Below the pieces are notes generated by a model, which did no database searches, was not told the DNA's origin, and saw nothing but the letters and a program-made list of their open reading frames with translations. From Octopus sinensis (lineage: Eukaryota): DNA of 64,000 nt. The DNA lies in assembly GCF_006345805.1 (NCBI RefSeq), contig NC_043009.1, positions 16,740,001 to 16,804,000 on the forward strand. Direction: 5' to 3'. This document shows positions 2,801-29,894 of this stretch, one piece after another. The position numbers and the translations under genes were made by a program. How positions within the stretch are numbered: the stretch's first letter is position 1; each line of letters opens with the position of its first letter.

Positions 2801-3237
2801 CCCGTGTGTGTGTGTGTGTTGTGTGTGTGTGTGTGTGTGTGCTAACAATATTCTGCGTTTTCTAAATTTATACTCTTGTAACAATGTAAGAAATGATGGT
2901 TAATAATATTTATTATTAGGATTGATTACAGTTGTGTTGTTTAGATTTAAAAAGATAATTGCTATAAATATATTACATTCATATATATAATTAAGCTGAC
3001 CTCTGTTAATTTAAACACATGATGCATAATTCTGATTTACAGCTGAGCAATATGAAGATCACTGAGCCATGATGGCTTAGGCTATTAATATGTATGATCA
3101 CTTCAAACCACAAAGAGAAAGAGTTTTATGAACTTCAACCATTCTAATCAGAGCTATTATCTCTATACAATATCATTTTTAACATATGCTTCTTGATTTG
3201 TTGTTTTATTATTTATATGTATCTATATCTGTATGTG

Positions 3238-12615: not shown

Positions 12616-13473
12616 TTAAATATCTTTGCAAATCATTGTTAAAAATTAATTTCTTCTTACAACTAGTTTCAAAATATGAGTCATGTTAATGCTGGTACTT
12701 AATCTCATCAACATGACCACCACTACCTGAGGCTATAAAAGGAGTCTCTAGACTAGACTTCACTATAGCAACTGTAAAACTAACAATGCAAACACCTGTC
12801 CTTAATCCTAACTAACCAGACTCACGTGAAGGAGATCTTCTACAACAATCCTCAACACAACTTACACAAAAGGTGACAATACTGGAAGCAGCTGCTTCTG
12901 TGGTAACACAGGTTACATCACTTTTCCAATGTAAATAACAAAGCCATCAGATATTAAACTGATATATTTCACACTGTTGGTAAAATAAGTTGAACAATTA
13001 AAATCATTTCTAATATAAAGACAAGGTGACATATTTCAGAAGAGAGAGAGAGAGAGAGTGAAATCACCACTACTAGTATTTTACTGGTACTTATTTTATC
13101 AACTCAGAGATAGCAAAAGCCAAAGTCAATTTTGACAAGATTTCATCTCAAAACGTAAGGAGAAATAATTAAATGCCACAAAATATTTAGTCCAACCTTA
13201 TCATCTCTGTCCTCAATAATAATAATTGTTTACAATGTAGTCACAGAACAGAATTTTATCTTTTATTTCAGTCATTAGACTGTGACTATGATGGGGCACT
13301 GCCTGGAGGAATTTTAGTTGAAATAATCGACCCCAGTACTTATTTCCTTTTTAAGCCTGGTACTTAGTCTATCGGTCATTTTCCCCAAATTGCTAAGTTA
13401 TTGGAATGTTAACACACCAACACCAGTTGTCAAGCAGTGGTGAGGAACAAACACAGTCACATATACATATATA

Positions 13474-16394
13474 TGTTGTGAATCTTGCAGGCATGAAGTA
13501 GATTTGATCCTAGATAGCCAAATATAAATTAACACTTCAACAGCACTTTTCTCACAGTAAAACAATAGTTTTTCTGTAACAGCAGTTTACATTTGTCAGA
13601 TGCTTTGCTAAGCAAAACAATGTCTTCGCCACTTGGCCCTTCTAACCTCTTATAAGCCACCAAAAGCTAGAATTAAAATAACAAGTACCACCAATGAAAT
13701 CTACTGTTGTCAACAATATGTCTATTCTTCTGGATAGTTATAAAAACAAGAACCCCTGGGCAAAAGTCAGTTGGTGAGTTAGTGAGAATGGAGTCTGGTT
13801 GACTGGCTGAACAAAACGCTGTCACAAAAGGACAACTATGGTAACTCACTAATGAAGCAGTTGTTTCATTACAACTTGAATCACTCTTCTTTCATCTTTA
13901 CATAATGGCAATCAACTAACAACAAACTATTACAATTGGTGATGACCCTGAACTTCAATGAAGAACCAATCCTTACAAATTGGTTACTCAACCGTTACAC
14001 TAATTAACTTCTACCATTCCAAATTGGTGATCCTGACGTTGCACCATAACAGGCATCAATTACAAATTGGTGACCCCGTGTAAAAAGAATTGCTGCCTTC
14101 TAAAGCTACATTAGCTGCTATCTTTTCCTCACTACCTCAGCTTAAAAACAGAACTACAATCTTCATATTAACAGTTGTTAGACCAAAGGAAAAATAATGA
14201 CAACCTTTGTCTCCACCAAGATGCATCCTCCTTCGACCTGCTACAAAAAGCTCAATACTGCGATCCACTTCTCAACAATGCAACACTGCCAATGCACAAG
14301 GAATTTGCCGAACATGGAAGCCAATAAATGCATCATTTTGACAGCTACGTGCCCAGAAACTTATTGAATAACACTATGGAAGTCCACACGTGCAACATTT
14401 TCAACAGCCATAGACTTGGACTTTCTTTGCATTTCAAATGCTACTTTTTAGCTTTTCAGGACCAGAACACTTTCTAACCAAGTTTGTCATTTTAGCTTAA
14501 TTAATTTTGTTGTTTGCATTGCACACGCATTGTTCACCTGTTCTTATTACATGGTTTCTGCTAAATGTCTAATTTCTTTCTTCGCATGCACCTTTCCTAG
14601 GCACCTGGCCTTGCACATGCATCTGCATACATGGCACATTGTTACACACACACACACACACATGCTGTCATATTCATGCCCCACACATGCCTTTCTCGTT
14701 TGTTTTTCACGCTCCCTGTGCCCTTCTAGACACAACTAGTCTCTGTAAGACACTAGGTCGGTCATACATACATAGAGAAAGTTGTTTGTCCCTTACAATG
14801 CACCAGCATGCCACACATTCGCTCCTGTACAATCAAGGCATATAATACCTCATGCACTGGCTGGTATATTCAGCACTGCCTTAATCTCTGGCATATTTAA
14901 TACCGTACATTGTATTTGTAATCAATGCACTAGCATTACTGCCTCAGCCTTGCAAGCTCTGTTGTACACATGCACCTCTATTATGCCTCTACTGCCTTGT
15001 TTTGCAACACATCTGTGTCAGCTCAACACTTTTCCTGACTCGATTTACGTTGGATGTTCACATATTCAACGCTCATGTTTAGACATAATTTGCCCCTGTT
15101 AGACCCCTGTTTGGTCATGTAATTAACAGAGAAAATTATCTGTCTCGCGCATCACTCCAGCATGCTTACACTGTTGTCCTTGCTAACCTCAGCTAGTACC
15201 CACAACAACAGCACCAGGCATATTTCACTTCTGAAAAACCTTCAAGGCATTTCATAAACTGCAACCCTGCAGGAGGATCTTCCATATGATGGACTGAGAA
15301 TACACTCGCTCGCTCACCTGAGCTTATTTTACCGTGAATTTCAAAACCTGCACCTGCCCTTGTGTATACGCCCTCATGCGCACTCACATGCTCATTTTCT
15401 TTTCTGCCTAGTCATGACTGCACTCATTTCGACATGCAAAGCGACACCGCTATTCAAAATTATCCAAACAGAAAACTGTCCCATATACACTTCAATGATC
15501 CTCTCTCCTAATATGTGAAGGTTCTCCTCAAGCATAAATTTCTTTCTCTTCCTCAATTGTTCGCCCCCCCCCCCCGAAGCTCTCTGGTGGGGGAGTTATG
15601 TTGTGAATCTTGCAGGCATGAAGTAGATTCGATCCTAGATAGCCAAATTTAAATTAACATGTCAACAGCACTTTTCTCACAGTAAAACAATAGTTTTTCT
15701 GTGACAGCAGTTTACATTTGTCACATGCCTTAGCTAAGCAAAACAATGTCTTTGCCACTTGGCCCTTCTAACTTCTTATAAGCCACCAAAAGTTAGAATT
15801 AAAATAACAAGTATCACCAACGAAATCTATTGTTGTCAACGATATGTCTATTCTTCTGGATAGTTATAAAAACAAGAAGCCCCAGGCAAAAGTCAGTTGG
15901 TGATTTAGTGAGAACAGAGTCAAGCTGACCAGCTGAACAAAACGCCATCGCAAAAGAGCACAAAAGGACAATTATGGTAACTCACCAATGAAGCACTTCT
16001 TTCGTCCCACACTCTCTCACTAGCTCACTTTATTTTCTCTTACAACATCACTATTTCTATCTGTAATTACTACTACACAATGATGAGATCACAAACACAA
16101 ACTATACAAGGAAAATCTATGACATCTATCTTTACTTTGCATGCTTTACGATTTTATCACCTGCCTGTTGAGGCAAGGTATTTTACAATGTAACGGTACA
16201 ATAAATATTTTCTTCAATCACCGTTCTTTCATCTCCACATAATGGCAATTAATTAACAACAAACTATTACAACTGGTGATGACCCCGAAGTTCCATACTA
16301 CTGTTTACAAATTAATTTCAACCGTTACAAAAATAAACTTCTACTGTTACAAATTGGTGACTCAACCGTTACACTAATTAACTTTTACCGTTAT
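13474..16394 (+). mobile_element. non-autonomous LTR retrotransposon (5' LTR 13474-14021, 3' LTR 15599-16394) with tRNA-Trp PBS array
   Basis: Two direct repeats starting TGTTGTGAATCTTGCAGGCATG; purine tract GGTGGGGGAG just before 15599; PBS-like TGGTGATCCTGACG (14025) and TGGTGACCCCG (14068); 1.5-kb interior without a long ORF; flanked by TA repeats. Confidence 0.9.
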
Positions 16395-16401
16395 ATATAT
16401 C

Positions 16402-27379: not shown

Positions 27380-27640
27380 GAAGGTCGTGCTTCACCACCT
27401 AAAGTACGAAGGTGGTTAAGCATGACCTTCAAACTTTAGGTCTCACCGAGGAAATGACTAGAGACCGAGACCTTTGGAAGTATTCTGTGCGTGAGAAGAC
27501 CCGGCAAGACAAGTGAGACCATAACCCGTGGCCTCTACCTGGGATGTAGCCAGTCCACTTATGCATACCTTTCCTTCTTGGAACACAAAACTCTACTTGT
27601 GAAGACCTGTTGCGGCAAGTAAAAATCAAAATCAAAATAT
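27380..27640 (+). mobile_element. RTE 3'-end fragment with AATCAA tail
   Basis: EGG*A*PSNFRSHRGND-type ORF2 end followed by a 3'UTR; the same tail recurs at 28241-28390 and 29067-29215. Confidence 0.7.
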
Positions 27641-27649
27641 ATACATGAT

Positions 27650-28062
27650 ATACTCTTTTACTCTTTTACTTGTTTCAGTCATTTGACTGTGGCCATGCTG
27701 GAGCACCACCTTTAGTCGAGCAAATTGACCCCGGGACTTATTCTTTGTAAGCCCAGTACTTATTCTATCGGTCTCTTTTGCTGAACCACTAAGTGATGGA
27801 GACGTAAACACACCAGCATCGGTTGTCATGCAATGCTAGGGGTACAAACACAGACACACAAACACACACACATATATATATATATATATACATATATATG
27901 ACAGGCTTCTTTCAGTTTCCGTCTACCAAATCCACTCACAAGGCATTGGTCGGCCTGGGGCTATAGCAGAAGACACTTGCCCAAGATGCCACGCAGTGGG
28001 ACTGAACCCAGAACCATGTGGTTGGTTAGCAAGCTACTTACCACACAGCCACTCCTGCGCCT
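27650..28062 (-). mobile_element. tRNA-derived SINE (near full length, dominant family)
   Basis: Minus strand starts AGGCGCAGGAGTGGCTGTGTGGTAAG (A box) and GGTTCAGTCCC (B box), has an internal TA/CA tract, and ends in an AAAGAGTAAAAGAG tail. Confidence 0.9.
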
Positions 28063-28105
28063 ATATGTATATATATATGACATATGTATATATATATGAT
28101 ATATG

Positions 28106-28129
<24 letters not shown>

Positions 28130-28148
<19 letters not shown>

Positions 28149-29281
28149 GATATTTATAATACAAAGTAAGATAGGGGTTATGGGTGTAACCCACTATGGG
28201 ATAGTATTTATCCAATATACTGCTGGTGAAGTACCCAGATGGAAGTTATGCTGTGCGTGAGAAGATCCGGCAGGACAAGTGGCCTCTACCTGGGATGTAG
28301 CCAGTCCACTTATTCATATCTTTCCTTCTTGGGACACAAAACTCTACTTGTGAAGACCTGTTGAAGCAAGTGAAAATCAAAATCAAAATATATACATGAT
28401 ATATGTATATATATATGATATATGTATATATATATGATATATATATATGACATATGTATATATATATGATATATATATATATGATATGGGTGTAACCCAC
28501 TATGGGATATCAATATCCAATATACTGTTGGTAAGTACCCAGATTCTTAATACATAAATGTTTTTAATTGCAATGCAATTAACTCACTTATTGTATTAAA
28601 TGGGTGAAGGTAAAGAAATACTTTTACTGTAAATTTATAATACAAATAAGAAAATGGAGAAACAAGTTTAGTTTGTTCATCAACTTTCGGATATTAGAAT
28701 GTTGGATTATTTATTCATTCAATAAAATGAGAACCTCAATATTATACATATATATCATATAATTCAATACATATAAGATAATAATACAAGTTATAAAAAT
28801 CAATATAAATTATTGAAATCATTAAAATCACTTCTTACAGCTGTTTCAGCCTATGGCTAAAAGTAGTTATTTTTATTGCCTATATTTGTCAACATAATGA
28901 TGTTGCAGGCATTTAATATGGTACTTATATAACCATAGGCCCCATACATATATATATTATATATATATATATATGATATTTATAATACAAAGTAAGATAG
29001 GGGTTATGGGTGTAACCCACTATGGGATAGTATTTATCCAATATACTGCTGGTGAAGTACCCAGATGGAAGTTATGCTGTGCGTGAGAAGATCCGGCAGG
29101 ACAAGTGGCCTCTACCTGGGATGTAGCCAGTCCACTTATTCATATCTTTCCTTCTTGGGACACAAAACTCTACTTGTGAAGACCTGTTGAAGCAAGTGAA
29201 AATCAAAATCAAAATATATACATGATATATGTATATATATATATGATATATGTATATATATATGATATATATATATATGAC

Positions 29282-29313
<32 letters not shown>

Positions 29314-29782
29314 GATATGGGTGTAACCCACTATGGGATATCAATTATCCAATATACTGTTGGTAAAGTACCCAGATTCTTAATACATAAATGTTTTTAA
29401 TTGCAATGCAATTAACTCACTTATTGTATTAAATGGGTGAAGGTAAAGAAATACTTTTACTGTAAATTTATAATACAAATAAGAAAATGGAGAAACAAGT
29501 TTAGTTTGTTCATCAACTTTCGGATATTAGAATGTTGGATTATTTATTCATTCAATAAAATGAGAACCTCAATATTATACATATATATCATATAATTCAA
29601 TACATATAAGATAATAATACAAGTTATAAAAATCAATATAAATTATTGAAATCATTAAAATCACTTCTTACAGCTGTTTCAGCCTATGGCTAAAAGTAGT
29701 TATTTTTATTGCCTATATTTGTCAACATAATGATGTTGCAGGCATTTAATATGGTACTTATATAACCATAGGCCCCATACAT

Positions 29783-29790
<8 letters not shown>
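28130..29790 (+). repeat. near-perfect ~830-bp tandem duplication (28130-28955 and 28956-29790)
   Basis: GATATTTATAATACAAAGTAAG at 28149 and 28975; CCATAGGCCCCATAC ends both units; differences are almost only TA-tract length and 1-bp indels. Confidence 0.95.
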
Positions 29791-29816
<26 letters not shown>

Positions 29817-29894
29817 CGTATATTGGAGCATATAAACACATCTATGCTTATGACCAGATAAATAATAGTCAATTATTAATAATAATAATATTAA

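What the first reader, a model, noticed from the sequence alone, without database searches (positions are those of the whole stretch)
13930..14080. Regularly spaced array of tRNA-Trp primer-binding sites with unique spacers (CRISPR-like layout) in an LTR element
Seen: four units with consensus TTACAAATTGGTGACCCCGA have their TGG at 13937, 13981, 14025 and 14068 (spacing 44/44/43 bp), separated by mutually dissimilar ~21-nt spacers. Known: TGGTGACCCCGACG is the tRNA-Trp PBS (as in Rous sarcoma virus), and TTACA looks like an LTR 3' terminus, so each unit is 'LTR end + PBS'. Standard LTR elements have a single PBS. Inference: the element adds PBS-spacer units serially, giving alternative priming sites or a record of successive replication events. 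I cannot confirm whether such multi-PBS arrays are already described for this family.
Basis: partly seen in the sequence, partly recalled or inferred. Interest (0 to 1): 0.75.

Follow-up and report, generated by a model that had tools for sequence, protein, structure and literature searches.

The report
Stacked primer sites shift retrotransposon ends
An old jumping-gene family in this animal genome carries a variable stack of copies of its "repeat end plus tRNA primer site" junction, likely made by copying slips on the primer tRNA rather than by CRISPR-like capture of foreign DNA, and the place where its terminal repeat ends likely depends on which primer site started the copying.

Summary
The array is real. 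TGG starts lie at 13937/13981/14025/14068, and the repeat is complementary to the host's tRNA-Trp 3' end, though decayed (8, 9, 12 and 11 of 14 bases). It belongs to a dead, non-coding Gypsy LTR element (13474-16395; LTRs 7.9% diverged; CsRn1-like).

The CRISPR-like reading fails. The spacers are a small shared stock: 134 of 160 family units fall in five types, and genome-wide searches find them almost only in family arrays.

The array straddles the LTR boundary. The 3' LTR holds units 1-2 and ends just before unit 3, so unit 3 likely primed this copy and unit 4 lies in the leader. In 6 of 10 two-LTR copies compared, 2-4 primer sites lie beyond the LTR end. LTRs bounded by a target-site duplication end at different units.

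Younger arrays, in this genome and in metagenome contigs, consist of a 13-33-base tRNA copy plus the LTR tail. One family member ends in 39 copied tRNA bases. Likely mechanism: plus-strand strong-stop DNA stalls on the tRNA, slips back and recopies the junction.

The scan noted similar arrays on four other genomes. My paper searches found no description in CsRn1 elements.

The parts
13470..13473 (+). left 4-bp target-site duplication (TATA, in TA-rich DNA, so weak on its own)
13474..14021 (+). 5' LTR; starts TG; its right end is placed at the decayed LTR-end motif 14017-14021 by comparison with the 3' LTR
13937..13980 (+). unit 1 (type A): decayed PBS with a 3-nt duplication + spacer + LTR-end motif; inside the LTR
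   Evidence: its spacer is at 74 places, 26 of 30 fetched being family LTRs
13981..14024 (+). unit 2 (E+F): truncated PBS joined to an LTR-end motif (13995), then a PBS-less module ending in the LTR end; inside the LTR
   Evidence: the E-F junction is at 6 places, all family
14025..14067 (+). unit 3 (type G): PBS 14025-14038 (12 of 14 match), likely the site that primed this copy, + spacer + LTR-end motif
   Evidence: the 3' LTR ends just before this unit; its spacer is at 42 places, 30 of 30 fetched being family arrays
14068..14110 (+). unit 4 (type H): 11-nt PBS in the leader, followed by a box (14092-14103) matching the complement of tRNA-Trp nt ~39-50 at 10 of 12
   Evidence: 11 of 11 genome hits lie behind att+PBS
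14022..15598 (+). short internal region; no stop-free frame above 108 aa; shared with longer relatives that keep RT/RNaseH/integrase remnants
15586..15595 (+). polypurine tract
   Evidence: sequence
15599..16395 (+). 3' LTR (797 bp), holding two PBS-like units (TGG at 16274 and 16355) and ending after module F
16396..16399 (+). right 4-bp target-site duplication (TATA)

Best explanation
This is the U5/leader junction of a dead, non-coding Gypsy LTR retrotransposon whose family carries a variable stack of 'LTR end + tRNA-Trp primer site' modules, likely created by reverse-transcriptase slips on the primer tRNA, with the LTR's right end likely set by whichever module primed a given round of copying. 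Shown: the modules, their match to host tRNA-Trp, their reuse across copies, modules inside duplication-bounded LTRs, LTRs ending at different modules, and tRNA sequence copied far beyond 18 nt in a family member. Inferred step 1: plus-strand strong-stop DNA copies the tRNA to a pause (18 nt at the m1A58 position, or ~24, ~30, ~38 nt), re-anneals near the U5 tail and copies tail + PBS again, which adds a module whose 'spacer' is tRNA read-through plus U5 tail. Inferred step 2: priming at an inner module copies all outer modules into both LTRs, while priming at an outer one leaves the rest in the leader. Inferred step 3: duplication, recombination and deletion between the short shared motifs shuffle and erode the modules. 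In the window's copy unit 3 likely primed.
For: (a) 12 of 33 LTR right ends scored have an exact 4-bp duplication, 7 of them not TATA; 10 of the 12 hold 1-3 PBS-like units inside the LTR, and they end after different modules. (b) Of 10 two-LTR copies set side by side, 6 (window, L048, L054, L059, L083, L109) have a 3' LTR end that matches a point with 2-4 PBS units still downstream in the 5' array; L089 used the innermost; 3 are ambiguous. (c) In the window's own sub-lineage, 5 of 5 right ends seen stop after module F (window, L003, L006, L161, L171), while 2 of 2 leaders (window, L047) go on with G and H. (d) A leader-type H module forms the end of an LTR in L200. (e) L163, a family LTR, is followed by 39 nt of tRNA-Trp complement (3 mismatches) and then unrelated DNA; L067-L069 stop at 38, 37 and 39 nt. 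(f) 22 of 25 units of one type match the complement of tRNA nt ~42-50 at 8 or more of 9 bases at the collinear offset; chance is 3.1e-4 per unit, and the 25 descend from about one event. (g) Young arrays made of a tRNA copy (13-14, 18, 24 or 29 nt) plus tail occur in 23 of 32 metagenome hits, and other families in this genome have them too (L042, L093, L162, L167, L168). Tails match the U5 end at 7-12 of 14 bases in 15 multi-unit loci. (h) RT stops before m1A58, at 18 nt (PMC8599865, passages).
Against: No replication intermediate was observed; the family is old (window LTRs differ at 31 of 394 columns). Deletion between the repeated LTR-end motifs after insertion could also shorten a 3' LTR and keep the duplication intact. 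Only the window, of the 6 clean two-LTR copies, has a verified duplication, and it is TATA in TA-rich DNA; L048 and L109 do not match; the 5' starts of L054, L059 and L083 were not found. 21 of 33 ends lack an exact duplication and 5 more gave no end; a further set gave 2 of 7. The 5' and 3' arrays disagree in L046 and partly in the window. Spacer types A, B and G show no significant tRNA likeness (1 of 17, 0 of 23 and 0 of 30 units at p<0.05), so their origin is untraced. The tail-versus-U5 comparison includes the LTR-end motif itself and is partly circular; L126 gives only 7 of 14. PMC8599865 states that read-through cDNA fails to complete integration in HIV-1, so such products should be rare.
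Confidence: 0.7

Rival explanations
1. The stack is an ordinary DNA-level minisatellite of the U5/PBS junction (about 22/44-nt period). It expanded and contracted by slippage or unequal exchange. Only the innermost PBS ever primed, and shorter LTR ends come from deletions after insertion.
For: TRF reports a 22-nt period in the 3' LTR array. Units repeat in tandem in single copies (L062, L082, L046, L057). L131/L151 hold satellite-like runs with 26 near-perfect PBS copies. Many LTRs have lost the PBS half of unit A by deletion. L089 and several solo LTRs end directly before the last PBS.
Against: Slippage on genomic DNA cannot supply tRNA sequence beyond the genomic PBS, yet units carry 24-33 nt of it and L163 carries 39 nt. 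Five separate insertions share the same 'early' end after F. Window spacers do not align to each other.
Confidence: 0.18
2. The extra sites are kept by selection as a multi-primer leader: backup priming sites, extra tRNA loading, or extended tRNA pairing through the downstream box. They arose as in the best explanation but are functional.
For: Five module types persist across 61 loci in largely conserved order. The box is better conserved than the linker before it. Several unrelated tRNA-Trp-primed families show stacks, including a coding one with a CHCC Gag motif (L126/L145). Drosophila gypsy has a second PBS (PMC1635307, abstract).
Against: Single-PBS relatives exist (L041, L044, L004). Outer units erode freely. 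Shared order may only reflect descent. No functional data.
Confidence: 0.2
3. CRISPR-like serial acquisition: the element inserts new, foreign spacers between constant repeats in polar order, as a record or as guides.
For: Repeat-spacer layout; dissimilar spacers within the window; largely conserved unit order; spacer A has a 17-of-18 match in an unrelated repeat (4 of 30 loci); L089 has a 73-nt unrelated insert between two motif copies.
Against: 134 of 160 units fall in five types. Spacers G, E-F and H are found only in family arrays (30 of 30, 6 of 6 and 11 of 11). The commonest family form of spacer A differs from the unrelated repeat at two positions, and the reversed control pattern gives 4 hits. 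Young units are tRNA + U5 tail. No clear polarity of decay.
Confidence: 0.03

Closest known systems
CsRn1 lineage of Ty3/Gypsy LTR retrotransposons (CsRn1, Kabuki, PwRn1, AgCR; PMC2582038 and PMC3630058, passages; present in 9 of 12 cephalopods, PMC6238403, passages)
   Same: tRNA-Trp PBS, 4-bp target-site duplication, PR-RT-RH-IN order remnants and an integrase GPY motif in longer relatives
   Different: The passages read describe one PBS per element and fixed LTR ends. Here there are up to 5 PBS units, partly inside the LTR, with variable right ends. The window's copy is non-coding.
HIV-1 MAL-type 23-nt partial PBS duplication, and multiple-PBS revertants of engineered HIV-1 (PMC3185550 and PMC1084362, passages)
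   Same: PBS sequence is duplicated next to the original
   Different: As described there, one partial copy downstream, or transient culture revertants; no repeated LTR-end motif and no shift of the LTR boundary was seen in those passages.
Bipartite or extended primer binding (Drosophila gypsy 5' and 3' PBS, PMC1635307 abstract; Ty1/Ty3 boxes and the HIV primer-activation signal, recalled)
   Same: additional tRNA-complementary sequence besides the main PBS (the box at 14092-14103)
   Different: There the extra sites are not tandem LTR-end+PBS modules, and in gypsy only the 5' PBS is needed for cDNA synthesis.
TRIM/LARD non-autonomous LTR elements and their tandem arrays (PMC4558846, passages; Cassandra arrays PMC7215508, search listing only)
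   Same: non-coding internal region with LTRs, PBS and PPT; L062 shares one LTR between two internal regions
   Different: Those arrays repeat whole LTR-internal units, not 20-60-nt junction modules.
CRISPR repeat-spacer arrays (recalled)
   Same: layout only
   Different: Spacers are shared and self- or tRNA-derived; no acquisition gene; the repeat is a primer site.

Membership tests
LTR retrotransposon (Ty3/Gypsy) | two LTRs TG...CA, PBS, PPT, target-site duplication | tested here: met
   both LTR right ends in the window are decayed and the duplication is TATA
LTR retrotransposon (Ty3/Gypsy) | RT-RNaseH-integrase order | tested here: met
   in relative L088: RVT_1, RT_RNaseH, rve in this order; absent from the window's copy
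CsRn1 lineage | PBS complementary to tRNA-Trp | tested here: met
   18-nt perfect in relative L043
CsRn1 lineage | 4-bp target-site duplication | tested here: met
   12 of 33 ends exact, 7 non-TATA
CsRn1 lineage | GPY motif near the integrase end | tested here: met
   L052 integrase stretch
CsRn1 lineage | CHCC (CX2HX9CX3C) Gag motif | tested here: inconclusive
   no sense-strand hit in family loci L031-L064 and L073-L123 (no gag seen); present in metagenome elements L126/L145
CsRn1 lineage | RT/IN tree placement with CsRn1 and Kabuki | not tested
   no named reference proteins among the 120 hits listed; named hits are unnamed or hypothetical polyproteins, mostly of flatworms
CRISPR-like acquisition array | copy-specific spacers of foreign origin | tested here: not met
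CRISPR-like acquisition array | polar growth with decay at the old end | tested here: inconclusive
   order largely conserved and the outermost type is the most decayed, but the gradient is not monotonic
CRISPR-like acquisition array | array processed into guide RNAs | not testable with these tools
   no raw small-RNA reads were available
Simple minisatellite | units alignable as copies of one monomer | tested here: not met
   0 of 6 spacer pairs significant; TRF finds no array at 13930-14080, only a 66-74% 22-mer in the 3' LTR

The most novel reading that the evidence does not exclude
tRNA-Trp-primed (CsRn1-type) retrotransposons routinely grow and move their own LTR end. Reverse transcriptase writes variable lengths of the primer tRNA plus the LTR tail into new modules; selection keeps several as working primer sites and keeps read-through boxes as extended tRNA-pairing signals. 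The stack would then be both a multi-primer leader and a fossil record of where RT paused on modified tRNA bases in vivo.
Probability: 0.22. Interest if true: 0.72.

Novelty: new variant of a known kind. Interest (0 to 1): 0.52.

Why it matters
Textbook LTR elements have one PBS and a fixed LTR end, and tRNA copied past position 58 is described as a dead end (PMC8599865, passages). Here a whole family shows the LTR boundary at different modules and keeps read-through tRNA sequence. If the mechanism holds, it shows a route by which LTRs lengthen and leader sequence becomes LTR sequence. It offers natural read-outs of RT pause sites on a primer tRNA (18, 24, ~30 and 37-39 nt). It also warns that annotation tools taking the first or last PBS will misplace LTR ends and mis-date such elements. 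It is not a new immune or memory system.

Tried and rejected
1) Spacer G as a copy of the tRNA D-arm: it looked suggestive by eye, but 0 of 30 units beat shuffles at p<0.05; rejected.
2) Presence test for module E (47 of 85 loci, control 17) was uninformative. The G count (37 of 85) is inflated because 30 loci were fetched for holding G.
3) A tandem near-perfect PBS pattern gave 1 hit in the own genome and 0 in viral contigs. 9 of the 32 metagenome hits are mostly GC-rich, coding-like repeats judged by eye and dropped; the other 23 are redundant (a handful of families), and L130 lacks a clear LTR end.
4) No intact autonomous copy was found among the 20 loci scanned for open stretches.
5) Expression: no RNA holder listed. 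One run guessed to be RNA has a 265-nt contig identical to 13843-14107, which is not evidence of transcription. Contigs from runs labelled organisms B and C match parts of the array with 0 differences, which fits an old fixed insertion, but no contig spans the stretch.
6) The protein search gave no hit named CsRn1.
7) Paper searches for multi-PBS arrays found no description in CsRn1 or other Gypsy elements. Only open-licence PMC and bioRxiv were searched. Repbase reports, the original CsRn1 and Kabuki papers, and the PBS alignment in the PwRn1 supplement were not seen and may bear on novelty. PMC12789967 (passages) and a second look in PMC3185550 gave nothing relevant.
8) A second target-site check found an LTR start in only 7 of 18 loci and an exact duplication in 2 of those 7.

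Full report
1. Observation. The four TGG starts are at 13937, 13981, 14025 and 14068. A pattern search of the own genome found 60 tRNA-Trp-like 3' ends; ARAGORN called tRNA-Trp(CCA) in 3 of 6 loci scanned, and the complement of the mature 3' end is the repeat motif. The window's units match it at 8, 9, 12 and 11 of 14 bases. A strict finder sees 2 of the 4 units, against 7 sites in 121,800 nt of background; a looser one sees all four. The spacers do not resemble each other (0 of 6 pairs).

2. The element. A self-comparison shows two LTRs, starting at 13474 and 15599, a purine tract before the second, and TATA on both flanks. They differ at 31 of 394 aligned columns. The 1.6-kb interior has no stop-free frame over 108 aa. 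The genome is 2.7 Gb; I take the host to be an octopus from recalled SINE sequence and from earlier scan notes, not from a test of my own. The LTR query gave 1908 first-look candidates, of which 40 were scored. The interior query gave 457, also 40 scored, at about 80% identity. Longer relatives keep RT, RNase H and integrase remnants in Gypsy order, with a GPY motif. The tRNA-Trp PBS, 4-bp duplication and GPY motif fit the CsRn1 lineage as defined in PMC2582038 and PMC3630058 (passages), a lineage reported in 9 of 12 cephalopods (PMC6238403, passages). No Gag motif was found in family loci and no tree was made, so membership is likely but not complete.

3. The spacers are shared, not acquired. 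In 61 loci I found 160 att+PBS units; 134 fall in five types, in largely conserved order, often with tandem repeats of one type (30 loci had been picked for holding spacer G). Genome-wide, spacer G occurs at 42 places and 30 of 30 fetched are family arrays. The E-F junction occurs at 6 places, all family. Spacer H occurs at 11 places, all behind att+PBS. Spacer A occurs at 74 places; 26 of 30 fetched are family and 4 are an unrelated repeat with a 17-of-18 match, probably chance since the reversed control gives 4 hits. Mean PBS match per type is 9.4-10.4 of 12, with no steady gradient. This removes the CRISPR analogy except for the layout.

4. The array straddles the LTR end. The window's 3' LTR contains two PBS-like units and ends after module F, which in the 5' copy is followed by unit 3. 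So the 5' LTR ends at 14021, units 1-2 are U5 sequence, unit 3 is the likely primer site and unit 4 is leader. All 5 E-F right ends seen stop after F (window, L003, L006, L161, L171), and both leaders seen (window, L047) continue with G and H. Of 33 right ends scored, 12 have an exact 4-bp duplication (7 not TATA). Ten of these 12 contain 1-3 PBS-like units, and they end after different modules; 21 lack an exact duplication and 5 more gave no end. Of 10 two-LTR copies compared, 6 have 2-4 PBS units beyond the point matching the 3' end, 1 used the innermost, and 3 are ambiguous; among the 6 only the window has a verified duplication. By standard LTR replication (established knowledge), U5 runs up to the priming site, so a PBS inside an LTR implies priming further downstream. 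Deletion between the repeated end motifs after insertion is the main alternative for short 3' ends; the repeated F ends argue against it but do not exclude it.

5. Where modules come from. L163 is a family LTR followed by 39 nt of tRNA-Trp complement and then unrelated DNA. L067-L069 show 38, 37 and 39 nt behind LTR-end-like motifs. That length ends just before tRNA position 37; that this base is methylated is recalled, not tested. The 18-nt class fits the m1A58 stop (PMC8599865, passages). One unit type carries a 9-nt box matching tRNA nt ~42-50 at the collinear offset in 22 of 25 units, and the leader type in 8 of 39 (chance 3.1e-4 per unit; related units are not independent). The window's unit 4 matches 10 of 12. 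Other families in this genome have two- to four-unit stacks, several with 29-33 nt of read-through (L042, L093, L162, L167, L168). In metagenome contigs, 23 of 32 hits are young stacks of a 13-14, 18, 24 or 29-nt tRNA copy plus a short tail. They include apparent solo LTRs with 2, 3 or 4 units and a coding element with a CHCC Gag motif. Tails match the U5 end at 7-12 of 14 bases in 15 multi-unit loci, a comparison that includes the end motif itself. The simplest reading, which is inference, is that plus-strand strong-stop DNA pauses on the tRNA, re-anneals at the U5 tail of the same or a co-packaged template, and recopies tail and PBS. Types A, B and G could not be traced to the tRNA.

6. Known cases and novelty. 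HIV-1 MAL has a 23-nt partial PBS duplication, and engineered HIV-1 gave multiple-PBS revertants (PMC3185550, PMC1084362, passages). Drosophila gypsy has a second PBS at the 3' end (PMC1635307, abstract). Six searches found no account of stacked LTR-end+PBS modules in Gypsy elements, but Repbase and subscription papers were not covered. Four earlier scan notes report similar arrays in other genomes. They agree with this reading, are unchecked and are not counted as support; two of them gave me the HIV papers. What this locus adds is family-wide evidence for shifting LTR ends and for captured read-through.

7. Verdict. A real feature and a new variant of a known kind: a self-made stack of primer-site modules in a CsRn1-like family, most likely a by-product of reverse transcription (0.7), possibly selected (about 0.2), and not a CRISPR-like system (0.03). 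Interest 0.52.

Noticed in passing
L163 (G000:C1:195378676), L067, L068, L069: An LTR end or LTR-end-like motif followed by 37-39 nt of tRNA-Trp complement and then unrelated DNA; possibly integrated plus-strand strong-stop products that stop before tRNA position 37.
   Followed up: partly
L131 and L151 (metagenome contigs): Satellite-like runs over more than 1 kb of a ~31-nt LTR-end+PBS unit (26 near-perfect copies plus decayed ones), followed by leader-like sequence.
   Followed up: no
L166, L167, L168 (G000:C6:18.8 Mb; C15:0.38 Mb): TRIM-like mini elements with a read-through unit, a second PBS, about 100 nt of interior and a purine tract.
   Followed up: partly
L089, about 3055-3110: A ~73-nt insert between two copies of a 10-nt LTR-end motif in the 5' array, absent from the 3' LTR; it holds 10 nt in tRNA-Trp sense orientation.
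   Followed up: no
L062, 3678-5218: One LTR with a 4-unit array lies between the end of one interior and the start of another (tandem elements sharing an LTR).
   Followed up: no
G000:C6:69.79-69.89 Mb: Cluster of 16 tRNA-Trp 3'-end pattern hits; ARAGORN confirmed three genes in the two loci scanned.
   Followed up: partly
L179, L189, L190, L191: An unrelated repeat, inverted in L191, with a 17-of-18 match to spacer A; probably chance.
   Followed up: partly
family-wide: Many insertions sit in or next to TA or TG microsatellites, and several LTR ends run into CA repeats.
   Followed up: no
window 27528-29817: Near-identical tandem duplication with a period of about 830 bp.
   Followed up: no
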